Positions 2,723 through 32,941 of a DNA stretch of 33,170 bases are shown here, in pieces. The notes under the pieces were generated by a model that worked only from the letters and a program-made list of their open reading frames with translations, searched no databases and had not been told where the DNA came from. Source of the DNA: a virus (taxonomy: Duplodnaviria > Heunggongvirae > Uroviricota > Caudoviricetes); IMG/VR virus record IMGVR_UViG_2541047926_000010. One strand, given 5' to 3'. A program made the position numbers and the translations under genes. The stretch's first letter is position 1. Each line of letters begins with the position of its first letter.

Positions 2723-3786
2723 AGCAGCTCTACCTCAACGTTTCCTAATTTGAGCCATTCGACTTTCGTGGCATCGATTATCGGTTGAATATTTGCCGAT
2801 GGTGTAACGATGTCATAGTCGGTAATACCCGGAATTAGAGAAATCAATGTCCCCGCCTGGCTGCGAATAAAAGCCACTCCAGGCTCTCGGCGCGAGTCAT
2901 CGTCCTCCAGCGTTCCGGCGACAGCCTGTTTGGCTGCTGCGAGGGTGATGCCCTCCAGTGATACCTTCACGAGGACGTCAAATGTACGGATGACAGGTAT
3001 GAGCACCAGCGTGTTTTTTGCTGTAACAGGCCGGACATCGTCAATGTGAGCCTGCACCCTGTCGATCACATCCTGAGATGGCAGCCCACCTGCAGACGTG
3101 ATCACAACATCAACGGTACCCGGCCCCCGCCGCAAAGGGTAAACATATGCGGCGGATACGCCTGATACCTCAAGCGCCCAGCGTTTGTAATCATATTTAT
3201 TGCCGCCTGCAGGAGGTCGGCGGATGATTTCAAGCAGACGAGCAAGCAGCTCTGCATCCGTTTCCTCATCTGTTCCGCCAGTCATCAGGCCTACTGTCAC
3301 TGTGCTGTCAAACCCATCAGGTGTTGTGGTCAGTGTGGCCGATGTGACGGAAGTGGTGTTACCAGTGGTTCCGGCCAGAGAAGACACTGCGTTTACCGAT
3401 GATTTTCCATCTGACCCGACAATAATATCTTCGGTTGTTGTCCACGAAACACTGTCGCGTTTGAACACAAGACCGGCAGCGGCCACCGCTCCTGGTTCGC
3501 CGGTAAACGTGGCAGGCCCGGAGGCGCTGTTGGCTGCTTTTTTGCTTAAACCACGTAAACGGGCGTGCAGATAGAGGAATTCCGAATCAGCAGTATCCGG
3601 AAAGATCTGACGGACTATCCATCCCTGATGCTGATAAAGCCCCTCGGCAACACTGGCTACACTCGATGCCCGGATGTACCAGTCGCTGTCCGGGCCCAGC
3701 GTATCATCTGACAACTGCAGGAGATTTTTGATATCCCGCAGAATGTCAGTGCGTATTTGCGCGGCATTTTTGGTAATGAATGGCAT
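2719..3786 (-). CDS. Baseplate J-like protein (Mu gp47-like)
   Basis: 355 aa; baseplate J-family features and synteny; overlaps both neighbouring genes. Confidence 0.8.
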   Translation of the reverse strand: MPFITKNAAQIRTDILRDIKNLLQLSDDTLGPDSDWYIRASSVASVAEGLYQHQGWIVRQIFPDTADSEFLYLHARLRGLSKKAANSASGPATFTGEPGAVAAAGLVFKRDSVSWTTTEDIIVGSDGKSSVNAVSSLAGTTGNTTSVTSATLTTTPDGFDSTVTVGLMTGGTDEETDAELLARLLEIIRRPPAGGNKYDYKRWALEVSGVSAAYVYPLRRGPGTVDVVITSAGGLPSQDVIDRVQAHIDDVRPVTAKNTLVLIPVIRTFDVLVKVSLEGITLAAAKQAVAGTLEDDDSRREPGVAFIRSQAGTLISLIPGITDYDIVTPSANIQPIIDATKVEWLKLGNVEVELL

Positions 3787-4136
3787 CAGCTGACCTTAAC
3801 CGGATATTTCCAGGTCTGCGGCGTTCCGCTCGCAGACGTGACGGTGATATGAAGCAGCATCCAGCCTTTTTGCCAGTGCTCTGCAGTAACGGAAATGGAC
3901 TGGGCGCGACCGTCGTCAATAATCGGTTGCAGGGCCTGCCGCGAATACTGCACCGCGAGTTGTTGAACGCGAGACACATCCTTTTCGCGGCGGAGTGTAT
4001 GCAAAAGAGAGCCCAGAGTTGGATCAGCCCACCATGAGCCAAGGGGCGTCATCAGCCGTAAGTAGACGGCATTCGCTAAAGAGTCTGAGCTGTCGCCGGT
4101 ATAATCGCCGGTCGTTGGATCAATCAACATTTCCAT
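3786..4136 (-). CDS. Mu gp46-like small baseplate protein
   Basis: 116 aa; synteny between spike and baseplate J genes. Confidence 0.65.
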   Translation of the reverse strand: MEMLIDPTTGDYTGDSSDSLANAVYLRLMTPLGSWWADPTLGSLLHTLRREKDVSRVQQLAVQYSRQALQPIIDDGRAQSISVTAEHWQKGWMLLHITVTSASGTPQTWKYPVKVS

Positions 4137-4189
4137 GCCGTAATACTACCGGCATGGAAATTTAAATTATCGGTGAAGGGGTTCAGTGG
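4137..4189 (-). promoter_or_regulatory. Candidate activator-dependent late promoter upstream of the gp46-like baseplate gene
   Basis: Minus-strand CCACTGAACCCCTTCACC (plus 4172-4189), identical to the copy upstream of the endolysin; 23-bp spacer to a -10-like TAGTAT. Confidence 0.45.
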
Positions 4190-14849: not shown

Positions 14850-15965
14850 TTATTTGAGGTATTTCGCGACGCTTTCCGGGTCATTGCCCATCATTGAGCA
14901 GATGGCCGGGTCAATCGCATCATCTTCAGCACCCTGTGACGGGCGTGACGGAAGGCCTGCAGGCGGTTGCCCCTGAGTCTGACTGGTAGTCAGTGCGGCA
15001 ATCTTTGGCGCTTTTTCGATAAAGGCGGTAAGACTGGCCGGATCGGATTTCGCCAGTGATGCAGCCCATTCCTGTTGCGCCGGAAGCAGACGACCGTCGC
15101 TGAGGGCAACCGTAATCAACGCTTCAGCCTGCTGCATGGCGAGTGCGGCGGTATTACCCGCACCGGCACGCTCTGTCGCCTGCTGAACGGCTGAATGCAT
15201 GACCTCCACCGAAACCCACTTAGCCGGGTCAGGCGTGTCGAGTTTCGCCGTCAGGTCGGCGATGCTCTGCGCGTTCTGGTTCAGGATATCCAGCAGACTG
15301 ACCGACGCCGCTGCAGTCCCCTGTCCACCGGAAATCATGGTGATGATTTTTTGCAGCTCAGCCATGATCTCTTCTTTCGTTGAGGCGGTTGGCAGATTGA
15401 GCATCCAGCGCAGGTTGCTCAGTAGCTCGTTGAGAAATTCTTCATCCATTTCGGTCTGACCCTCTGTGGTTAAATGCGCGGCCATCAGGGAGGCGGCAGC
15501 AAGTAACACTTCCTCCATCCCGTCGACCGCTGGTGTATTGGTCAGCGCGGCGTTGAGCAACTCCAGCACCTGACCGGTTTTGTCGTAAGAAAATACGGGG
15601 GAAATAAAGCGATACTCTTTCGCCTCGACCATCGCAGCCGCAGCGGCTGTCCACTCGACATCGATGGCGAACAAACCTTCACCGTTCCGCCACTCCAGCT
15701 TTTTGAAGAATGCAGCTGCAGGCGCAGGCAGACCGTTTTTAGCGGCCCGAAGGGTCTGGTGTTCGTAGTCCAGGACGTAGGGGGTGTCGCGGGCATCAGC
15801 TGCGGCAATAAGGCGCTCTGCAATTTCCCGCGTCATCAGCCAGGCGGCGCATTCGGTCGGACGCCCGTCACGGGCGCGGAATTCACCAGCCGGGAAGAGC
15901 TGGATGACACCGGGAGTGGCGGTGTTAATTTCCTGGGTGAGTGAAGCGATGAGTGTCTTTTTCAT
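14850..15965 (-). CDS. Head protease / scaffold protein, Mu I-like
   Basis: 371 aa; Mu I-like N-terminal region; synteny. Confidence 0.8.
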   Translation of the reverse strand: MKKTLIASLTQEINTATPGVIQLFPAGEFRARDGRPTECAAWLMTREIAERLIAAADARDTPYVLDYEHQTLRAAKNGLPAPAAAFFKKLEWRNGEGLFAIDVEWTAAAAAMVEAKEYRFISPVFSYDKTGQVLELLNAALTNTPAVDGMEEVLLAAASLMAAHLTTEGQTEMDEEFLNELLSNLRWMLNLPTASTKEEIMAELQKIITMISGGQGTAAASVSLLDILNQNAQSIADLTAKLDTPDPAKWVSVEVMHSAVQQATERAGAGNTAALAMQQAEALITVALSDGRLLPAQQEWAASLAKSDPASLTAFIEKAPKIAALTTSQTQGQPPAGLPSRPSQGAEDDAIDPAICSMMGNDPESVAKYLK

Positions 15966-16020
15966 GGTGCCGACGATACGGCACCACTGGGGGGGAGGTT
16001 CAGATGAAGAGGTTCAGTGG
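15966..16020 (-). promoter_or_regulatory. Candidate activator-dependent late promoter upstream of the protease/scaffold gene
   Basis: Minus-strand CCACTGAACCTCTTCATC (plus 16003-16020; 16 of 18 match to the other two copies); 23-bp spacer to -10-like TATCGT; 7-bp-stem hairpin GGTGCCG/CGGCACC (15966-15985) next to the ATG. Confidence 0.45.
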
Positions 16021-16021
16021 A

Positions 16022-16231
16022 TTATCGCTGAGGATCGTTTTCTTTGGTTGTCGGCTTATCGGGTTTAGCAGACTGACGCTTCTGATGCCGACGGGCAAAG
16101 TATCGGTCAGTGAACCACTCAGCAACCTTTATAACCAGGCCCCCAAAGATGCCAATGAAAACCCACTGCTGCGGGGTGAAATAATCAAGGAAAGCTTTGA
16201 ATGTGTCCAGTTGCTCGCTCCCGTAATGCAT
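16022..16231 (-). CDS. Doubtful small ORF (69 aa, one predicted transmembrane helix) inside the G-I gap
   Basis: ATG 16231-16229 with weak ribosome-binding site; hydrophobic WVFIGIFGGLVIKVAEWF; an equally long antisense ORF exists, so coding status is uncertain. Confidence 0.25.
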   Translation of the reverse strand: MHYGSEQLDTFKAFLDYFTPQQWVFIGIFGGLVIKVAEWFTDRYFARRHQKRQSAKPDKPTTKENDPQR

Positions 16232-16347
16232 TTATGAGCCCAGACCTTTTTAAACCGCTTTTAAAAACGTCTGAATACCTTCTGGCCGAATCACTCTAGC
16301 ACAATCAGACTGAACGCGTCACAGCGCCTTACAGGACGAATTTGCCC

Positions 16348-16890
16348 TCAGTCTAAAATACGTTTCAGATATTGCTCAGCCGTACTCTCCATCTTCTCCA
16401 CGTCATCTTCGGTGAGATGCAGGAAAGGACGCGCGGGCATCTTAATTTTATACGCCCCGATAGTGTTCCACTGCTCAAAGTTGGAACGGGATTTTTTAAC
16501 GAACCGGTTACCCACTGAACCATCCTTGTTCTGGCGGTAGTAGGCTTTCTGGCTGCGGGCCGGAATGCTGATTTCCCCACCTTCCTGATGAATGCGGGCG
16601 TATTTCACATTGGTCCCGACCGTCGCATCATCATTCGTGCTGTACTGCGTGATACTCGCTGCCAGTCGACCGCTCTTCTGTAGAATTTTACCGCCCCGGC
16701 GCTGACGGGCATATGCCGGGCTCCAGCCCATCCACGCAGGCCGCCCCTGTTGCGCGAAGTTTTCTTCGACGGCATCCCCCATGGCAGCGGCCATCTCACG
16801 CATCAGGGGGGCGCGGTTTTCCAGCTTTTTAATGAGTTCACCGAGTGAGCGCTCAAAGTCAGCAATGTCATACCTGATGGCGTAGCTCAT
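16348..16890 (-). CDS. Virion morphogenesis protein, Mu G-like
   Basis: 180 aa; synteny between the Mu F-like and Mu I-like genes. Confidence 0.8.
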   Translation of the reverse strand: MSYAIRYDIADFERSLGELIKKLENRAPLMREMAAAMGDAVEENFAQQGRPAWMGWSPAYARQRRGGKILQKSGRLAASITQYSTNDDATVGTNVKYARIHQEGGEISIPARSQKAYYRQNKDGSVGNRFVKKSRSNFEQWNTIGAYKIKMPARPFLHLTEDDVEKMESTAEQYLKRILD

Positions 16891-18173
16891 GATTTCAGCT
16901 CCAGCAGCTGCGCCGCGCGTTCAGATAACACATCGCCAGGGGTGACTGTGGCACCGGCGTTTACAAGCGACAGACGCCAGCCATCGTCAGACTGCACACC
17001 ACGCACGGCGCGGGTGCCGTTCTGCCCGGAGAGGAGCCACACCAGAGCGTCATCATCAAGCCAGACACCAGCTGGCTGACGGAGCAGAACGGGAAGCTCT
17101 GACCACATCGGGCCCGGAGCCAGCCGGACATCCTCTTCGTGAACGCTTAATGTGATCGCACCGTTAACACCACGCTCTTCGAGGCGATTCAGCAGCTCAG
17201 GCTGGATACCGCCAACGCGTCTCAGGTCGCCACGGGTCTTCTGCCGCACGCTGACGGTGTCGACCCAGCGACGCACATCATCGCTGACGGCATCCAGCAC
17301 TGCAGGTTCAGAGAGGGTTTCATGGATGGCCTGAGAGGCAATCCGGGGCGTGGTAGTTGCAGATTTATCCATGAGGCGCTGTCCGAGAGAAGAGAGCCAG
17401 CCCTGACCCGGATTGTGCCCGAATCCGGCATCAGGCGTGTAAAGCTCGCCGTTGAAGCGTAACGCCTTAACGTCACGGGTTTCTTTTGGTCCCCATGCCT
17501 GCTGTACCGTGACAATGTCCTGCTCCCACGATTTGACCTCAATCCCCATGCGGTCTGCATCCGCCTGACTTCGGGCACGAATGCGGCAGCGGCAGTGGTA
17601 TCCGTCAGGCGGGTACATAAACTGCCATACAGGATCGTCATAGCGGGCTGTGAAACCATTAAGTCTGGCGTGGAGTGGCCGGGTGTGCATGTCCATGACG
17701 GCCACGCGTTCCCATATGGGGCGAAACTCCGCGTTGGCCATCTGCTCCGCATAGCGACCGGCACCATAGGCCGCCTGCATATTGGTTTCAAAGATAGTGC
17801 GCAGACGGCGTGGCGTGAGTTGTTTACCCTCCAGAACGCCATCCTCATCGGCGACCAGCCTGGCACGGTCGGCAAGCCAGCCCTTACGGATCAACGTTGG
17901 GGTTATCTGCCGTTCAAAGTCCCGGAGCGTGCCGCCATCAGCAATATGCTCGCGAAGCGATTTATGAATATCCTCAAGCACATCCTGTTTAAGGACGCCC
18001 GCCACGGTGAAACTGGTGGCATGGGCGCGGGCCTCAATATCGTGCCAGTTAAAGCCGGTGGCATAGCCCTTCGATTCGAAGTAGGCAATCGCTTCTGCGG
18101 GCTTTAACCCGATGGCGTACCCCAGATCAACATCAGCTTTCGGCATTGAGTCGCCCCCAGACCTCGCTGACAA
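16887..18173 (-). CDS. Head morphogenesis / minor head protein, Mu F-like
   Basis: 428 aa; directly downstream of portal. Confidence 0.8.
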   Translation of the reverse strand: MSARSGGDSMPKADVDLGYAIGLKPAEAIAYFESKGYATGFNWHDIEARAHATSFTVAGVLKQDVLEDIHKSLREHIADGGTLRDFERQITPTLIRKGWLADRARLVADEDGVLEGKQLTPRRLRTIFETNMQAAYGAGRYAEQMANAEFRPIWERVAVMDMHTRPLHARLNGFTARYDDPVWQFMYPPDGYHCRCRIRARSQADADRMGIEVKSWEQDIVTVQQAWGPKETRDVKALRFNGELYTPDAGFGHNPGQGWLSSLGQRLMDKSATTTPRIASQAIHETLSEPAVLDAVSDDVRRWVDTVSVRQKTRGDLRRVGGIQPELLNRLEERGVNGAITLSVHEEDVRLAPGPMWSELPVLLRQPAGVWLDDDALVWLLSGQNGTRAVRGVQSDDGWRLSLVNAGATVTPGDVLSERAAQLLELKS

Positions 18174-22363: not shown

Positions 22364-22614
22364 TTGTCCTGTTTCCTGTCCAGTTTGTTATCAATGCGCT
22401 CGATAGCCGCTCGCAGCTCCCTCATCGCATCCATCATTGCGGTGTAGTTACTTTTCGCATCCTCACGGCGCTGGTATTCATCCCGGATGCGATCAACCGC
22501 CTTTTCCAGGTCGGTGATGTCTTTTTGCAGACGACGTATCCAGATGGTGCCGAAGGTTGCAGCCAGCGCCAGCGCAATCTGAAAGGCCATATCAAGAGTC
22601 ATAATGTTTTTCAC
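22360..22614 (-). CDS. Mu gp25-like small membrane protein (possible lysis regulator)
   Basis: 84 aa; N-terminal hydrophobic helix then charged coiled-coil-like region; adjacent to spanin genes. Confidence 0.45.
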   Translation of the reverse strand: MKNIMTLDMAFQIALALAATFGTIWIRRLQKDITDLEKAVDRIRDEYQRREDAKSNYTAMMDAMRELRAAIERIDNKLDRKQDK

Positions 22615-23243
22615 TTCCTGTAATACTCATTTATTGCCTGCAGCCTGCCCTCAAGGAGCTGGCACCATGCGCCGTATTCCGCTGAAAACGACACTATTCC
22701 AGTGGGGGAGAGTCCGCCACCGGTGCCTGTGGTCTGGCCGGTATGACCAGGAGCGCCGCTGGCGGTGGCTGGCAGATGCTGACCAGCGGGGAGGCTTTCG
22801 GCTCCTGGGTAGCCGAAGGCTTCCCGGAAGAGCTGCAGGCCCCCAGGGCCAATGCCGGTATAACCAGGACCATCTTTATCAAGTGCATCTTTAAGCCTCT
22901 TTTTAAGATCGCGAACAGTCTCGTCATGTGCCTTTTGCTTTTCAGCCAGCTCGCGGGTCAGCGCATCCGCTTTCTGCTGCCAGGCGTTCTGCTTATCAAG
23001 TGCAGCCTTCAGGTCAGCTGCATACTGATTCGCAGCACTGAGCCGCTCCTGATCCCACTGCCGTTCTTTTTCACTGAAACCATCAGTCAGGCTTTGCTTC
23101 TCCTTGCTGAAGGCCAGCGCCTGAGCGTCCAGCTTGTTGCCTGTGATGAAGGTGCCGAACCATATCCCGCTGCCTGTCAGAACCACGACGACGAGCAGCG
23201 GTTTCCAGCTAACCCTCAGGATTTTCTGGGCTGCTTCCCACAT
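22611..23243 (-). CDS. Inner-membrane spanin (Rz-like)
   Basis: ATG 23243-23241 (MWEAAQKILRV); N-terminal transmembrane helix LLVVVVLTGSGIWFGTFI, coiled-coil centre, Gly/Pro-rich C-terminus; track ORF extends further upstream to 23333. Confidence 0.7.
   Translation of the reverse strand: MWEAAQKILRVSWKPLLVVVVLTGSGIWFGTFITGNKLDAQALAFSKEKQSLTDGFSEKERQWDQERLSAANQYAADLKAALDKQNAWQQKADALTRELAEKQKAHDETVRDLKKRLKDALDKDGPGYTGIGPGGLQLFREAFGYPGAESLPAGQHLPATASGAPGHTGQTTGTGGGLSPTGIVSFSAEYGAWCQLLEGRLQAINEYYRK
22694..22888 (-). CDS. Outer-membrane spanin lipoprotein (Rz1-like), embedded in another frame of the i-spanin gene
   Basis: From ATG 22888 with GAGG 8 nt upstream; signal MHLIKMVLVIPALALGA then lipobox Cys; short Pro-rich mature part with a second Cys. 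Confidence 0.6.
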   Translation of the reverse strand: MHLIKMVLVIPALALGACSSSGKPSATQEPKASPLVSICQPPPAALLVIPARPQAPVADSPPLE

Positions 23244-23472
23244 CGCGCACCTCTCTGGCTCGTTTGATGGACATATGTTTTGATGCCTGGCTCTGTGCCA
23301 CCCACGCGCCCAGATAGGTGAGATACAGTTCACCGGGTGTTTCGGGACGGGTAACGGTGAGCCAGACCAGCACGAAGGAACTGACCAGGAAGGCCAGAAA
23401 AACGATGGTGTCTGACGTAGAGAGACGACCGGTGGCCGGGTTCGTCACCAGATCGCGCAGAGATATTTTCAT
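23209..23472 (-). CDS. Holin-like small membrane protein
   Basis: 87 aa; hydrophobic IVFLAFLVSSFVLVWLTV; ATG overlaps endolysin stop (ATGA); between endolysin and spanins. Confidence 0.4.
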   Translation of the reverse strand: MKISLRDLVTNPATGRLSTSDTIVFLAFLVSSFVLVWLTVTRPETPGELYLTYLGAWVAQSQASKHMSIKRAREVRDVGSSPENPEG

Positions 23473-24113
23473 AGCGCCGCCTTAGCGACATTCAGCCGCG
23501 CCACGCGGTCAGCCTGACCTTCAGCCGGAGGGTTGATACGCCGGGTTACGGCCAGAAAATTGCCTTTGTCAGCCAGCTCGTTGCAGCCATTTGCCTTCCA
23601 GTACCAGGCAGCGCTGCGGGCTGCGTTGAGATACTCCAGTAACAAATCGGGATTCGCGATGAGATCGAGGCCCAGCGCCTTACCGCAAAGGCGGTAATTA
23701 TCGCGCAGGGTAATCTGAATCAGGCCACGTCCGCGAAAGCGCCAGCCATCGCCTGATGCTTCATTACCGTTACCCCCCTGATTTGCGTAAACATAATTGG
23801 CCATTTTTTCAGGATTACGGGTATAGCGGCGGGCAAATTCCACCTCTCTCGGCTCGATAATACGATTCTTATTGAGATCGAAGTCGCTGCGGAAAATACG
23901 CGCCACGCGCTCAGCATCTGAGTAATAGAGATTTTCACTGAGCCGACTGAAACCCGCGCTCTCATGGCCGGTTTGAGCAATAAAGGCGGCAAGTCGGGCG
24001 GGTGTATTAATTTCGAATTCAGCGGTGGCTTTACTGAATGGTTCAAACCAGCGTTGCGCCATTACTGGCGAAAGGCCTGCGGCTCGCTGAAATTGTGGGA
24101 GTGTTAAAAGCAT
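23469..24113 (-). CDS. Endolysin, glycoside hydrolase family 19 (chitinase-like)
   Basis: 214 aa; GH19-like motifs FRGRGLIQITLRDNY and AAWYW; no N-terminal signal-anchor-release segment. Confidence 0.8.
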   Translation of the reverse strand: MLLTLPQFQRAAGLSPVMAQRWFEPFSKATAEFEINTPARLAAFIAQTGHESAGFSRLSENLYYSDAERVARIFRSDFDLNKNRIIEPREVEFARRYTRNPEKMANYVYANQGGNGNEASGDGWRFRGRGLIQITLRDNYRLCGKALGLDLIANPDLLLEYLNAARSAAWYWKANGCNELADKGNFLAVTRRINPPAEGQADRVARLNVAKAAL

Positions 24114-24190
24114 AACGCCATCCGGTTAAAAAGGAATGGCGTCAGTATTTCATCGGGTTAGGTGAATAATCAGGTGAAGGGGTTCAGTGG
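24114..24190 (-). promoter_or_regulatory. Candidate activator-dependent late promoter upstream of the endolysin gene
   Basis: Minus-strand CCACTGAACCCCTTCACC (plus 24173-24190); 23-bp spacer to -10-like AATACT; imperfect hairpin 24115-24142 directly before the ATG. Confidence 0.5.
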
Positions 24191-24679: not shown

Positions 24680-25114
24680 CTAAAAAAGTGAGTTTTGTGT
24701 TGAGGTTCCATTACTCTTTTCCGCAGCAAGAAGCTGCCAACCGAAGCGATCACTAAAACCATACTTAGGGCAAAGAAAGGTCATGGCCATAAGAGAGGAT
24801 GAACCTTGTTCACGCACTTCGGCGAACTCGGCGAGAAAGCGGCGGTTGCGTAATTCACGAAGGGCACGATCACAGCGCGGTAAATAGAGAACTTCTCCGC
24901 CGAAATTCTTGATGAGTAATTGGGTTTTATCATCGCCGATAGTATTGCGCAGGAGGGCTGCGCGGCTGGCCCCCATAGCGCGGAGGCCTTTACCTATCGG
25001 GAACGTGGTGCCACCAAAAGCAGAAAGAAGCTGCTCGGTCGCCGGGAAGCCTATCAGGTCAGCTATTTGAATCACTGCTGATGGCAGCAGCTCCGTTACC
25101 TGTTCCAGATTCAT
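24680..25114 (-). CDS. Mor/C-family transcriptional activator
   Basis: ATG 25114 (MNLEQVTELLP; track ORF begins upstream at 25150); GGEVLYLPR segment resembles the Mor/C conserved core; directly downstream of gemA. Confidence 0.75.
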   Translation of the reverse strand: MNLEQVTELLPSAVIQIADLIGFPATEQLLSAFGGTTFPIGKGLRAMGASRAALLRNTIGDDKTQLLIKNFGGEVLYLPRCDRALRELRNRRFLAEFAEVREQGSSSLMAMTFLCPKYGFSDRFGWQLLAAEKSNGTSTQNSLF

Positions 25115-25535
25115 TATTACGCTCCCGCTTTTTTCGCCGACTCGCATCAATGCTGAGAGCCTGCATGAGTTTGGTTAACTGTTCAGTCGTCAACCACTCG
25201 ATGTATTTGACGTGAAACATATGATCGCACATTTTCTCGGCATAATTCCACGGACGTTTTGCATCTGCAAGTAATGCGTTAATTTTAGAAAGAATTGACT
25301 CGCGCGTATTGGCAACCTTTGGGCGTCGACCGTGTTTTACTGAGTAGCGAGGAAAACCCTTGTCATGCATATATTCCATGACAGCCTGCAGCTCGTCGAG
25401 GGTGCATTTAGTGGATGATGTTTTACCGTTGCATAAGCGAGACAGAACACTACGGTAGGTTACCTCATCCCACCCCAGATATGCCTGACCGGCTTTAATT
25501 GCCCCTATAAGGCCTCGTTTTGCTGGCGTGGACAT
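25059..25535 (-). CDS. gemA: GemA-like protein (DUF1018-like)
   Basis: ATG 25535 with AGGAG 7 nt upstream; N-terminal MSTPAKRGLIGAIKAGQAYLGWDEVTYRSVL typical of the GemA family; followed by a Mor/C gene as in Mu. Confidence 0.75.
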   Translation of the reverse strand: MSTPAKRGLIGAIKAGQAYLGWDEVTYRSVLSRLCNGKTSSTKCTLDELQAVMEYMHDKGFPRYSVKHGRRPKVANTRESILSKINALLADAKRPWNYAEKMCDHMFHVKYIEWLTTEQLTKLMQALSIDASRRKKRERNNESGTGNGAAAISSDSNS

Positions 25536-30883: not shown

Positions 30884-32941
30884 TCAGAAGGTCGCTTTTT
30901 TATTGCCCTGACTTTTCAGCCATTCTTCACGCTCTGATTCGAACAGGAACACATGTTCCCGAGCATCATTAATACGCTCTGCGTCCGATGGTATTAATGC
31001 GCCGAAATCAGGGTACATATCGCTTTCAGGAAGCAGGCCTCTTGCCTCTGCTTCAATCTCTTCCCGTTGTTCGTCGATGCGCTTCAGACGACGCTGGCGA
31101 CGTTTCTCAACGGCGATATCCATCATGCTGGTTGGCAGCGCGGCACGCTTATTGCCGTTCCAGATGGCGGTGCAGACATAAGTACCGTCCATGCGACGAA
31201 CGATGACGGCAGCAGGGTCGTGAATGTCATAGGCGACCCGGACTTCCTCACCGTCGACCTGTATCAGGTCAGCGCTGAAATACTGGTTATTCATCAGGTC
31301 AATCCAGCCCCGCTGGGCGGTGCGGCACATTTCCGGCATGAAGGCTTCACGAAGCTCGATATCCGTCAGATATTCAATATCGTCACCCTCAGTGGCCAGA
31401 ACCTCGCGGCGGTACTGTGCTGGCGTCATATGCACACCATTACGTTTTGGTAGCTCGCTGTGCTCATGCAGGTTGTTGTATTTGTCGACTTCCTCAGCAA
31501 TGGTATCCAGCAGCATCTGCCACGACGGCAATTTACGCAGCGCGTTACGCTGTACGCTCGTGAGTTCGCGCCCATTCTCCTGAGCCTTAATCGCTGACTG
31601 GATAGCGCGACCGGTCATCCGCACATGCTCACGGTCGGCCCCGAATCCATTGTAAGTATCAAATTTATTGGCAATCGCTCTCGGTATTACGGCGTTCAGT
31701 CGTTCGATAATCCCGCGTGACTGCGGTCGACCCGGAATACTGGTCGGGTGATCAATACCCATGCGAGTGAAAATACCGGTGATATCAGCATCCAGCGTTT
31801 TATTGGTTTCACCGCCACCGTTATCCGAATAGACAAAAAGAGGTTTTCCGTGGAATTTCATGGCGTAGCGATAGGCATCCGCTACGGCGATGACGTTCTC
31901 TGAGAGCGCCAGGCTCCAGCCCACCAGGTAGCGGGTGCGGCCATCGATAACCAGCGTCAGTTCAGGTGTGAATGGACGACCATGGACCGGATGAGCAACT
32001 TTCATATCCAGCGATTTACCATCCGCAATCCAGCAACCATTTACTGGCATTTGTGACCAGTCACGCTTCTGATAAACCTCATAAGCCAGAGCCGCTGAAC
32101 CGCTGATACGGCCGCGAGCGCGTTCACGTTTTGGTAGCTTTTCCATCGCCCGACGCACGGCATCATAAGACGGACAGACGGCGAGCATCGCTGGCTGTCC
32201 CGCATAAATAGCCTGCCATTCAGTCTTGAATGAGCGCCACGCATCCACCAGAGAAGGGCCTGAGAGTTTCCGCCAGTGGGCGAGAAAATCAGGGAGCCAC
32301 TTAATCTGCTCAGGCTTACGCGCTTTAAGATGGCCTGGTGCCAGCAAAGCCAGGCGTTCGATACCTGGACGTGTAGAAAGGTAAACAGACAGCCATTCCT
32401 GAAGTGTTCTTTCGCCCACGCCACGACGGCTGGAACCTTTACGCGCATTGGCAATATCAGCCGCAGCCTGGATGTTTTCCGGCAACGTGCCCTTGCGTGA
32501 CTCTTTGGCGATGAACTCAACCGCCGATGCGCGTGACATACCGATATCCCGAAGACGCTCAACCTCTGCGGCTAATAATGCGCGGGCGTCGGCGATCTGT
32601 TTCTGGCGTTCGGTAAGGTCAGAGACCTCACGCTCCAGCAATACCGGGCACTGCCGCAATAACGTCAGTTCGTCGCGGGTCGTGGTGACTTCCCGCTTTG
32701 GTGCAGTCGGCGCTGATGAACAATCAGACTGTTTCAGCACCTCGCGATAATGCCGGGCTTTGACTATTTCACGCGCCTGTTCAGGCAGGCAGTCGATGTG
32801 GTACTCGAATGCTTTGCTGCCAGCACGTTTGCGAACCAGTTCAGGGGAGTTGCCTGCACTTTTTTTAAGGCTGTATCGCAGTCCTTGTTGTGTTGTTGGC
32901 AGTCCAGGGACGCCAACTAATTCGTTAACAGTCACGAACAT
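30884..32941 (-). CDS. A: DDE transposase, MuA-like
   Basis: 685 aa; size, position between ner and B, Mu transposase-like domain organisation. Confidence 0.9.
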   Translation of the reverse strand: MFVTVNELVGVPGLPTTQQGLRYSLKKSAGNSPELVRKRAGSKAFEYHIDCLPEQAREIVKARHYREVLKQSDCSSAPTAPKREVTTTRDELTLLRQCPVLLEREVSDLTERQKQIADARALLAAEVERLRDIGMSRASAVEFIAKESRKGTLPENIQAAADIANARKGSSRRGVGERTLQEWLSVYLSTRPGIERLALLAPGHLKARKPEQIKWLPDFLAHWRKLSGPSLVDAWRSFKTEWQAIYAGQPAMLAVCPSYDAVRRAMEKLPKRERARGRISGSAALAYEVYQKRDWSQMPVNGCWIADGKSLDMKVAHPVHGRPFTPELTLVIDGRTRYLVGWSLALSENVIAVADAYRYAMKFHGKPLFVYSDNGGGETNKTLDADITGIFTRMGIDHPTSIPGRPQSRGIIERLNAVIPRAIANKFDTYNGFGADREHVRMTGRAIQSAIKAQENGRELTSVQRNALRKLPSWQMLLDTIAEEVDKYNNLHEHSELPKRNGVHMTPAQYRREVLATEGDDIEYLTDIELREAFMPEMCRTAQRGWIDLMNNQYFSADLIQVDGEEVRVAYDIHDPAAVIVRRMDGTYVCTAIWNGNKRAALPTSMMDIAVEKRRQRRLKRIDEQREEIEAEARGLLPESDMYPDFGALIPSDAERINDAREHVFLFESEREEWLKSQGNKKATF

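What the first reader, a model, noticed from the sequence alone, without database searches (positions are those of the whole stretch)
15966..16347. Central G-I intergenic gap: candidate strong gyrase site, with a doubtful 69-aa membrane ORF
In phage Mu the strong gyrase site needed for efficient replicative transposition lies at the genome centre between genes G and I. Here about 380 bp separate the G-like and I-like genes, near the estimated prophage centre. The only ORF in the gap (16022..16231) has a weak ribosome-binding site and an antisense ORF of similar length. This G-I junction is also where Mu-like Pseudomonas phages carry anti-CRISPR genes, so a small accessory protein cannot be excluded.
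Basis: partly seen in the sequence, partly recalled or inferred. Interest (0 to 1): 0.55.

Follow-up and report, generated by a model that had tools for sequence, protein, structure and literature searches.

The report
Mu-like G–I gap: three elements
The 382-bp gap between head genes G and I of this Mu-like prophage holds three things: a conserved DNA element that matches the right arm of phage Mu's central gyrase site, a real but optional 69-residue membrane protein of the phage-21 holin family, and the late promoter for gene I.

Summary

**The ORF is a real gene.**
- It scores above Pfam's cut-off for PF04971 (phage 21 holin S), but only over TMD2 and the C-terminal tail.
- Homologues at 45% identity sit at the same G–I position in diverged Mu-like prophages.
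- Substitutions show purifying selection in the sense frame only (pN/pS 0.25–0.35, against 1.05–1.35 antisense).
- It is optional: 7 of 49 related gaps carry it.
- It lies upstream of the late promoter P_I and 7 kb from the lysis cassette.

**The strong-gyrase-site (SGS) idea has comparative support but is unproven.**
- G stop to ORF holds a core, TGTGcTAgagTGAT, followed by T5A4 and T3A5 blocks 11 bp apart, on the I-proximal side.
- The A/T element recurs at this position across Mu-like phages.
- Bridging phages pair the same core with an arm nearly identical to Mu's SGS right arm.
- An approximate rebuilt gyrase motif ranks the Mu SGS 4th of 36,588 positions. It ranks the window site only at the 96.6th percentile.
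- The core also reads as an extended −10 promoter.

Cleavage and replication assays are needed to settle it.

The parts
16348..16890 (-). Gene G (virion morphogenesis), the upstream boundary of the gap
   Evidence: PF05069, 105 bits. ORF listed.
16232..16347 (-). Conserved non-coding module between the G stop and orf69. This is the candidate counterpart of the Mu central gyrase site.
   Evidence: The block structure is conserved in all relatives. The A/T element always starts 77-102 bp after the G stop in 49 gaps.
16290..16303 (-). Core TGTGCTAGAGTGAT. The rebuilt gyrase motif places its best spacer match here, with the 4-bp stagger TGAT at 16290-16293. The core also fits an extended -10 promoter (TG-n-TAnnnT).
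   Evidence: TGTGGTAnnnTGAT is shared by the window clade and by the distant loci L082, L120 and L048. Motif score 4.3-4.4, 96.6th percentile of the window.
16247..16269 (-). CGTTTTTAAAAGCGGTTTAAAAA: two T(n)A(n) blocks whose TpA steps lie 11 bp apart, on the I-proximal side of the core
   Evidence: Unique in the window, with 0 expected by chance. Present in all relatives. In viral contigs it lies between G and I in about 55 loci, and upstream of distant I homologues in about 13 more.
16022..16231 (-). orf69: a 69-aa single-TMD protein of the phage 21 holin S family with a degenerate TMD1. It is an optional accessory gene.
   Evidence: PF04971, 35.1 bits against a cut-off of 26, matching profile positions 20-63 of 64. 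phrog_9876 holin. Homologues sit at the same site. Sense pN/pS 0.25-0.35, antisense 1.05-1.35. Alignment A2.
16004..16237 (+). Antisense ORF (77 aa from ATG). It is called as a CDS by PGAP in NZ_CP070045, but it is not a gene.
   Evidence: No family hit. Substitution pattern is neutral in this frame. Annotation seen.
16000..16020 (-). Late-promoter motif CCACTGAACCTCTTCATCTGA, the P_I equivalent
   Evidence: Three copies in the window, all on the late-gene strand, with 0 expected by chance. Conserved 40-60 nt before the I ATG in relatives. Alignment A1.
15966..15985 (-). Hairpin GGTGCCG-TATCGT-CGGCACC directly abutting the I start codon. The loop holds a TAnnnT hexamer.
   Evidence: Sequence. 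Arms differ but remain complementary in relatives. Analogous hairpins occur at the other two late promoters.
14850..15965 (-). Gene I (protease/scaffold), the downstream boundary of the gap
   Evidence: PF10123, 313 bits.
24170..24190 (-). Second copy of the late-promoter motif, upstream of the GH19 endolysin (P_lys equivalent)
4169..4189 (-). Third copy of the late-promoter motif (3 mismatches), upstream of the GP46-family baseplate gene

Best explanation
The G–I interval is a composite of three independent elements, read here in the G-to-I direction.

(1) 16232-16347 is a conserved cis-acting DNA module. I infer it to be this phage lineage's version of the Mu central gyrase site. It has a core, TGTGcTAgagTGAT, where gyrase would cleave. 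About 24 bp away, on the I side, lie two A/T blocks in helical phase. [quoted passage not shown] That would promote supercoil-driven synapsis of the prophage ends after induction.

(2) 16022-16231 encodes an optional accessory inner-membrane protein derived from a phage-21-type pinholin. TMD1 has lost its hydrophobicity. TMD2 (with a glycine motif), the aromatic patch and the basic C-terminal tail remain. The predicted topology is N-out/C-in, which is the topology of an activated pinholin. I infer that it oligomerises and permeabilises or depolarises the membrane, or modulates lysis timing.

(3) 15966-16021 is the Mor/C-type late promoter for the I operon.

Shown: the anatomy, the conservation, that the ORF is coding, and the promoter repeat. 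Inferred: gyrase binding, and what the protein does.
For: Anatomy and conservation:
- The same block order occurs in relatives with G identity from 54 to 98%.
- The A/T element is unique in the window and recurs at G–I in Mu-like viral contigs.
- Flanking stems do not covary, which points to a DNA-level element rather than an RNA structure (sequences).

Link to the Mu SGS:
- The Mu cut site lies 20 bp after the G stop, with T6A4, T5A3 and T3A2 blocks on the I side.
- L082 and L120 carry TTTTTTAAACGCGCCACGGCGTTTTTAAACG, which is nearly identical to Mu's right arm, together with the window-type core TGTGGTAcgaTGAT.
- At the position homologous to the Mu cut, the rebuilt motif scores 9.2-9.7 in L064, L082, L120, L123 and L134. 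That ranks 5-10 of about 10,000 positions and equals the Mu SGS level.
- Across 21 loci the mean motif score peaks at a fixed place, with a 10-11 bp ladder. Loci whose A/T element lies about 10 bp further from the G stop peak about 10 bp further upstream of it, so the predicted cut stays about 54 bp after the G stop.
- The right arm is the essential part of the Mu SGS (PMC10052514; PMC13284261, citing Oram 2006).
- The element is central in the complete near-identical prophage.

orf69:
- Family, homologue and selection evidence.
- TMD2 of S21 is sufficient for transient pores, and the aromatic patch stabilises them (bioRxiv 10.1101/2021.04.20.440580).

Promoter.
Against: Against the gyrase-site reading:
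- The window's own site scores only 4.3-4.4 with the rebuilt gyrase motif. That is the 96.6th percentile, rank about 1,000 of 33,041. Its core contributes 0.0, against 3.7 for Mu.
- The rebuilt motif is only an approximation: cross-validated r = 0.87, and the Mu SGS ranks 4th rather than 1st.
- It gives the functional Sp18 site only 5.6, so it neither confirms nor excludes.
- The window has two A/T blocks, whereas Mu has three or more.
- Direct Mu-to-window similarity is not significant on its own.
- Per PMC10052514, most Mu-like central sequences tested by Pato did not replace the Mu SGS.
- The core is also a textbook extended -10 promoter.

Against a lysis role for orf69:
- It is 7 kb from the lysis cassette.
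- That cassette has its own holin candidate (DUF2644) and a non-SAR GH19 endolysin, for which a pinholin would not suffice.
- Six of seven related phages lack the gene.
- The C-terminal tail tolerates a frameshift, as in P0005.
Confidence: 0.55

Rival explanations
1. The conserved core is a constitutive sigma-70 extended -10 promoter (TG-n-TAnnnT). The A/T palindrome downstream is part of its transcript or a regulatory site. The module would drive orf69 where that gene is present, in the way morons carry their own promoter. Elsewhere it would drive a short RNA or read-through into I. Gyrase would play no special part.
For: The invariant positions of TGTGGTAnnnTGAT across distant clades are exactly the TG, TA and final T that sigma-70 contacts. 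The three variable positions are the least important ones in a -10 hexamer. The element points towards orf69 and I. orf69 lies outside the late operon headed by P_I, so it needs another source of transcription.
Against: The module is equally conserved in the 42 of 49 gaps that have no orf69. There, a constitutive promoter reading into late head genes would make little sense. No -35 element is conserved, and the consensus scan did not call it (8 of 12 matches). No terminator follows the palindrome. This reading does not explain the helical phasing, the one-turn indel, or the identity of the L082/L120 arm with the Mu SGS right arm.
Confidence: 0.25
2. The spacer is simply the end of the lys–G late transcription unit. 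A terminator or RNA-stabilising hairpin would be formed by the A/T palindrome and the hairpin just after G.
For: In Mu a predicted terminator lies in the same interval. The window palindrome folds into a 15-bp imperfect hairpin, and several relatives have an AACGC...GCGTT stem followed by T's just after G.
Against: The A/T hairpin has an A-U stem and no U-tract after it on either strand. The terminator scan found nothing in 16232-16347. Flanking stem extensions do not covary, whereas the A/T sequence itself is invariant. The post-G hairpin is weak in the window.
Confidence: 0.1
3. orf69 is the phage's working holin or antiholin and sets lysis timing as part of the late lys–G transcript.
For: It is a member of PF04971 above the cut-off. 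It lies at the 3' end of the transcription unit that starts at the endolysin promoter copy. Precedents exist for holin-like genes far from lysis cassettes, in P1 and D29 (abstracts listed).
Against: It is absent from 42 of 49 related phages that have the same lysis cassette type. The endolysin has no SAR domain, and a DUF2644 two-TMD protein sits beside it. orf69 has no dual-start motif and a weak ribosome-binding site in the window. A related subfamily member (P0012) sits on the opposite strand beside a canonical holin, which is how accessory genes behave.
Confidence: 0.2
4. The plus-strand ORF is the real gene, as annotated by PGAP in E. coli FDAARGOS_1303. Alternatively, the small protein is an anti-CRISPR, as found at the G–I junction of Pseudomonas Mu-like phages.
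For: PGAP calls the plus-strand ORF. The G–I junction is a known accessory-gene site in Pseudomonas Mu-like phages (my own knowledge: Bondy-Denomy et al. 2013).
Against: Antisense-frame pN/pS is 1.05-1.35, and differences concentrate at sense codon position 3 (25-27 of 40 codons). The plus-strand ORF has no family hit. The minus-strand product is a membrane protein of a holin family. There is no aca-like HTH gene in the gap and no PADLOC hit.
Confidence: 0.03

Closest known systems
[quoted passage not shown]
   Same: It lies in the same intergenic interval and is near-central in the prophage. The A/T blocks sit on the I-proximal (right) side of the predicted cut, in helical phase. It is linked to Mu by intermediates (L082, L120) that share Mu's right arm almost base for base and share the window's core.
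   Different: The core sequence is unrelated to Mu's. The window has two A/T blocks rather than three or more. The predicted cut is about 54 bp after the G stop rather than 20 bp. The approximate gyrase motif score is 4.4, against 9.2 for Mu. No biochemical evidence exists for the window site.
Phage 21 S (S21 68/71) pinholin, Pfam PF04971
   Same: It has an HMM match above the cut-off. TMD2 carries the QW..IG..G motif, the aromatic patch precedes it, LT(D/N)RYF follows it, and the C-terminal tail is basic. Identity to a canonical 72-aa member is 40% (alignment A2).
   Different: TMD1 is replaced by a charged segment (E6, D9, K12, D16), or is absent in other subfamily members. There is no dual start. 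A lysine sits at the position of the third glycine-zipper residue. The gene is not next to an endolysin, and the phage's endolysin is not SAR-type. The gene is optional.
Mu C-dependent late promoters (Plys, PI, PP, Pmom)
   Same: A repeated upstream motif precedes the lysis, head (I) and baseplate operons. The phage encodes a Mor/C-family activator. P_I lies in the G–I gap, as in Mu.
   Different: The motif sequence (CCACTGAACCCCTTCAnCTGA) differs from Mu's. Only one Mor-family gene was recognised. Each promoter region ends in a hairpin that abuts the start codon.
Accessory-gene ('moron') site at the G–I junction of Pseudomonas Mu-like phages (anti-CRISPR locus)
   Same: It is the same genomic position, with optional small genes distributed patchily among otherwise collinear phages.
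   Different: The cargo here is a membrane protein of a holin family, not a soluble anti-CRISPR. No aca gene is present.

Membership tests
Mu-type strong gyrase site | Lies between genes G and I, near the centre of a transposable prophage | tested here: met
   Gap 15966-16347. In the complete 98.6%-identical prophage it lies at 47.6/52.4% of the length. Mu lies at 48.7%.
Mu-type strong gyrase site | Right arm with extended, helically phased anisotropic bending signals | tested here: inconclusive
   There are two T(n)A(n) blocks with TpA steps 11 bp apart on the I side. Mu, L082 and L120 have three. Phase relative to the shared core agrees within about 1.5 bp by manual count on the output.
Mu-type strong gyrase site | Sequence relationship to the Mu SGS | tested here: inconclusive
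   The direct local alignment covers only TTTTTAAAA-GCG and is not significant on the forward strand (p about 0.06-0.24). The indirect chain window – L082/L120 – Mu is convincing for the arm and the core taken separately.
Mu-type strong gyrase site | Outstanding match to the E. coli gyrase cleavage motif (Topo-Seq PWM) | tested here: not met
   With the rebuilt symmetric PWM (cross-validated r = 0.87), the Mu SGS ranks 4 of 36,588. The window site scores 4.3-4.4 and ranks about 1,000 of 33,041. The original PWM was not available, and Sp18, which is functional, scores only 5.6.
Mu-type strong gyrase site | Preferred quinolone-induced gyrase cleavage, and a requirement for rapid replication after induction | not testable with these tools
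   Needs biochemistry and genetics.
PF04971 phage 21 holin S (pinholin) | Profile match above the curated cut-off | tested here: met
   35.1 bits against 26, E = 1.3e-8, but over profile positions 20-63 of 64 only.
PF04971 phage 21 holin S (pinholin) | Two TMDs, the first a weakly hydrophobic SAR-type helix that exits the membrane | tested here: not met
   The N-terminus HYGSEQLDTFKAFLDYF aligns with TMD1 SYGVSAATMIYSFLDSF but carries four charged residues. Other subfamily members start at METFKAFLDYF.
PF04971 phage 21 holin S (pinholin) | Dual-start motif giving a holin and an antiholin | tested here: not met
   There is a single ATG and no second Met near the N-terminus.
PF04971 phage 21 holin S (pinholin) | Encoded next to a SAR endolysin in the lysis cassette | tested here: not met
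   The endolysin at 23469..24113 is GH19 without an N-terminal TMD and lies 7 kb away. A DUF2644 protein and spanins sit beside it. All 454 phage-collection homologues are in lambdoid lysis cassettes.
PF04971 phage 21 holin S (pinholin) | Hole formation or membrane depolarisation on expression | not testable with these tools
   Needs expression assays.
Mor/C-dependent late promoter set | A shared upstream motif before several late operons, plus a Mor/C-family activator gene | tested here: met
   Three copies on the late strand at 16000-16020, 24170-24190 and 4169-4189, with 0 expected by chance. A Mor-family protein is encoded at 24680..25150 (PF08765).
Anti-CRISPR locus at G–I | A small soluble inhibitor followed by an aca HTH gene | tested here: not met
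   There is one ORF only, it is a membrane protein, and no HTH ORF lies in the gap.

The most novel reading that the evidence does not exclude
Mu-like transposable phages in general may carry a bipartite central module: a core TGTGGTAnnnTGAT that also reads as an extended -10 promoter, plus phased TTTAAA blocks. This would be the ancestral form of the strong gyrase site, with Mu's own core a derived variant. The promoter-like core could couple local transcription or RNA polymerase binding to gyrase recruitment. Beside it, a subset of these phages would keep a naturally TMD1-less, 'pre-activated' pinholin as a stand-alone membrane effector, for example for exclusion or abortive killing rather than for lysis.
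Probability: 0.2. Interest if true: 0.7.

Novelty: new variant of a known kind. Interest (0 to 1): 0.45.

Why it matters
The Mu SGS is the model for how DNA sequence makes gyrase processive, yet it has been studied almost entirely in Mu itself. A conserved core-plus-phased-arm module across many Mu-like phages would supply a natural series of variants. These differ in the number of blocks, in one-turn indels and in core sequence, so they could test which features recruit gyrase and which drive end synapsis.

The holin-family gene shows that the G–I junction is an accessory-gene site in enterobacterial Mu-like phages too. It also offers a natural single-TMD pinholin derivative for studying pore formation without the regulatory TMD1.

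In practical terms, the locus is mis-annotated on the wrong strand in at least one RefSeq genome.

Tried and rejected
1. **Counting matches to the published 133-nt gyrase consensus.** This failed the positive control. The Mu SGS ranked about 246th in Mu, so I dropped it.
2. **Reading Oram & Pato 2004 and 2006.** Neither paper is held.
3. **Retrieving the published PWM (sheet DS10).** The sheet was truncated in the stored supplement. Instead I regressed 575 published per-site scores on W3110 sequence.
4. **Recovering the full asymmetric PWM.** The score is the maximum over both strands, which makes the fit behave like phase retrieval with too few sites. Alternating least squares left a residual of 0.67, and a larger run timed out. 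A forward-only regression was uninformative.
5. **Direct Mu-versus-window alignment.** Only the A/T tract aligned.
6. **Reading the A/T palindrome as a terminator or an RNA hairpin.** It has no U-tract and no covariation.
7. **Reading the A/T motif as the late-activator site.** It occurs once only. The repeated motif is CCACTGAAC... instead.
8. **Database screens on the gap and orf69.** Rfam gave only a sub-threshold chance hit, and PADLOC and NCBIfam gave nothing.
9. **IHF and Fis consensus checks by eye.** No convincing site was found; this was not a tool result.

Full report
**1. Observation**

The window is a Mu-like prophage with its late genes on the minus strand.
- G (PF05069) is 16348..16890. 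I (PF10123) is 14850..15965. A Mu-type transposase is at 30884..32941.
- The interval 15966..16347 is therefore the G–I gap, 382 bp.
- It holds the 69-aa minus-strand ORF 16022..16231 and an overlapping plus-strand ORF.
- A 98.6%-identical complete prophage in E. coli FDAARGOS_1303, inserted in ydbL and about 34.2 kb long, places the gap about 0.8 kb from the midpoint.
- In Mu the annotated gyrase cut site (17879/80) lies 20 bp after G. A predicted terminator and the late promoter P_I follow it.

**2. The ORF is a gene**

Family and homologues:
- orf69 matches PF04971 (phage 21 holin S) at 35.1 bits against a cut-off of 26. The match covers profile positions 20-63 of 64 only. It also matches PHROG holin families.
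- Near-identical proteins are named 'phage holin' by NCBI. They always sit between G and I of the same prophage type.
- Diverged homologues at 45-46% identity occupy the same position in prophages whose G is 84% and 65% identical (L052, L056, L079). These have good Shine-Dalgarno sequences. Two further family members, P0008 and P0011, are also in G–I gaps.

Selection:
- Over 40 aligned codons, differences fall 13-14, 5-7 and 25-27 at codon positions 1, 2 and 3.
- pN/pS is 0.25-0.35 in the sense frame and 1.05-1.35 in the antisense frame.
- The plus-strand CDS that PGAP calls in NZ_CP070045 is therefore spurious.

Structure of the protein:
- Against a canonical 72-aa S21-type holin, orf69 keeps TMD2, the preceding aromatic patch and the basic tail.
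- Its N-terminus, HYGSEQLDTFKAFLDYF, aligns with TMD1 but carries four charges.
- The other subfamily members start at METFKAFLDYF.

Context:
- In the phage collection, all 454 homologues are under 40% identical. The records listed are lambdoid, Stx-converting and Klebsiella phages, mostly with holin and lysozyme annotated under the match. None was in a Mu-like G–I gap.
- The window's own lysis cassette is 7 kb away. It has a GH19 endolysin without a SAR domain, a DUF2644 two-TMD protein, and nested spanins.
- Of 49 related G–I gaps, 42 are 205-261 bp with no ORF. Seven are 381-417 bp and carry a family member.

orf69 is thus an old, optional accessory gene. Work on S21 truncations shows that TMD2 suffices for transient pores and that the aromatic patch stabilises them. 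I therefore infer a membrane-permeabilising or lysis-modulating role. Nothing here tests that.

**3. The late promoter**

- CCACTGAACCyCTTCAhCTGA occurs three times in the window, all on the late strand, with 0 expected by chance.
- The copies lie before I (16000-16020), before the endolysin (24170-24190) and before the GP46 baseplate gene (4169-4189).
- A Mor-family activator is encoded at 24680..25150.
- The motif is conserved 40-60 nt before the I ATG in relatives.
- orf69 therefore lies upstream of P_I and outside the I operon.
- Each of the three promoter regions ends in a hairpin that abuts the start codon.

**4. The conserved non-coding module**

Between the G stop and orf69, relatives share these features:
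- A core, TGTGgTAgagTGAT, at window 16290-16303.
- After 17 variable bases of fixed length, CGTTTTTAAAAGCGGTTTAAAAA at 16247-16269.
- This A/T element is unique in the window, and its two TpA steps are 11 bp apart.
- A pattern scan of viral contigs found it between G and I in about 55 loci. It was also just upstream of I homologues only 25-40% identical in about 13 more.
- Stem extensions flanking the palindrome do not covary, and no U-tract follows. It therefore looks like a DNA element, not a terminator.

**5. Link to the Mu SGS**

- Direct alignment of the window gap with the Mu gap finds only the A/T tract.
- Two distant loci, L082 and L120, carry TTTTTTAAACGCGCCACGGCGTTTTTAAACGGGGTTTAAACG.
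- That is almost identical to the Mu right arm, TTTTTTAAAACGCGCCACGGGATTTTTAAACCGGTATTTAACG.
- The same loci have the window-type core, TGTGGTAcgaTGAT.
- The right arm is the part of the Mu SGS that is essential (PMC10052514; PMC13284261).

**6. Gyrase motif score**

How the motif was rebuilt:
- The published PWM sheet was truncated.
- I regressed 575 published per-site scores (Sutormin 2018, Trusted_GCSs) on W3110 sequence under a reverse-complement-symmetric model.
- Cross-validation gave r = 0.87 and rms 1.46, with an unambiguous register.

Results:

| Sequence | Score | Rank or percentile |
|---|---|---|
| Mu SGS (positive control) | 9.2 | 4 of 36,588; predicted position 17875, one 4-bp stagger from the annotated 17879/80 cut |
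| Best position anywhere in the window gap | 4.5 (16182) | about 950 of 33,041 |
| Best position in the G–orf69 spacer (stagger TGAT, 16290-16293) | 4.3-4.4 | 96.6th percentile |
| L064, L082, L120, L123, L134, at or one to two helical turns from the position homologous to the Mu cut | 9.2-9.7 | 5-10 of about 10,000 |
| Sp18, reported to function in Mu (PMC10052514) | 5.6 | rank 50 of 3,001 |

- The window spacer site decomposes into left arm 2.7, core 0.0 and right arm 1.7. Mu gives 2.5, 3.7 and 3.1.
- Aligned on the A/T element, the mean score over 21 loci peaks at -24, with a 10-11 bp ladder.
- Loci whose A/T element lies about 10 bp further from the G stop peak at -34/-35. The predicted cut therefore stays about 54 bp after the G stop.
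- Because Sp18 scores only 5.6, a modest score does not exclude function.

**7. Verdict**

- The anatomy is settled: a conserved module, an optional holin-family gene, and the late promoter.
- That the module is this lineage's gyrase site is the best-supported reading. Position, orientation, phasing and the homology chain all favour it.
- It remains unproven, and the window's own motif score is ordinary.
- The main rival is that the core is an extended -10 promoter, since the invariant positions are TG, TA and T. The two readings need not exclude each other.
- The interpretations of the ORF as doubtful, or as an anti-CRISPR, are rejected.

Noticed in passing
window 15966-15985; 24114-24150; 4133-4160 (minus strand): Each of the three late-promoter regions ends in a 6-7 bp hairpin whose 3' arm abuts the start codon: GGTGCCG/CGGCACC before I, ACGCCAT/ATGGCGT before the endolysin, and ATGCCG/CGGCAT before GP46. 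The arms differ among relatives but stay complementary. In P_I and the baseplate promoter a TAnnnT hexamer sits in the loop 6-7 nt before the ATG. That suggests either leaderless mRNAs or a structured 5' end with no Shine-Dalgarno sequence.
   Followed up: partly
L001 18304-18537 (NZ_CP070045.1 1525379-1525612): RefSeq/PGAP annotates the antisense ORF (WP_233098473.1) as a hypothetical protein and misses the holin-family gene on the late strand. The substitution pattern shows that the wrong strand was called.
   Followed up: yes
L004-L008 6001-6219 (protein P0005): A widespread variant (listed in 193 blocks of the index) has a 9-nt in-frame deletion and a 5-nt deletion. The second frameshifts the C-terminal tail, so the ORF runs on over the late-promoter motif and stops at its TGA. 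The basic tail beyond about residue 60 is evidently dispensable.
   Followed up: partly
L010 about 3150-3175 (Kosakonia sacchari prophage): This relative lacks orf69. At the same place it keeps ATGCACCGTGACTCTCATTAA, which resembles the first codons of orf69 (ATGCATTACGGGAGC...). That suggests loss by deletion rather than never having had the gene.
   Followed up: no
L144 4001-4213: In a lambdoid prophage, a 70-aa member of the same subfamily (P0012) lies on the opposite strand between the lysozyme and Rz-like genes. A canonical 72-aa S21-type holin is also present. So this subfamily behaves as accessory cargo there too.
   Followed up: partly
window 16196-16212 (minus strand): Inside orf69, a good Shine-Dalgarno sequence (GGGAG) lies 7 nt before the CTG codon for Leu8. 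That codon aligns with the Met1 of the other subfamily members. The window lineage may have changed its start codon, or may use a weak upstream ATG to keep expression low.
   Followed up: no
window 22611-23472 (minus strand): The lysis cassette has a DUF2644 protein (87 aa, with one clear and one weak hydrophobic segment) as the likely holin. It also has an i-spanin ORF with an embedded lipoprotein ORF (lipobox LALGAC, 22694..22927).
   Followed up: partly
L141 1065-1145 (E. coli O157:H7 Sp18-type prophage): RefSeq annotates a 'tRNA-OTHER' on the opposite strand between the F and G genes of the Mu-like prophage.
   Followed up: no
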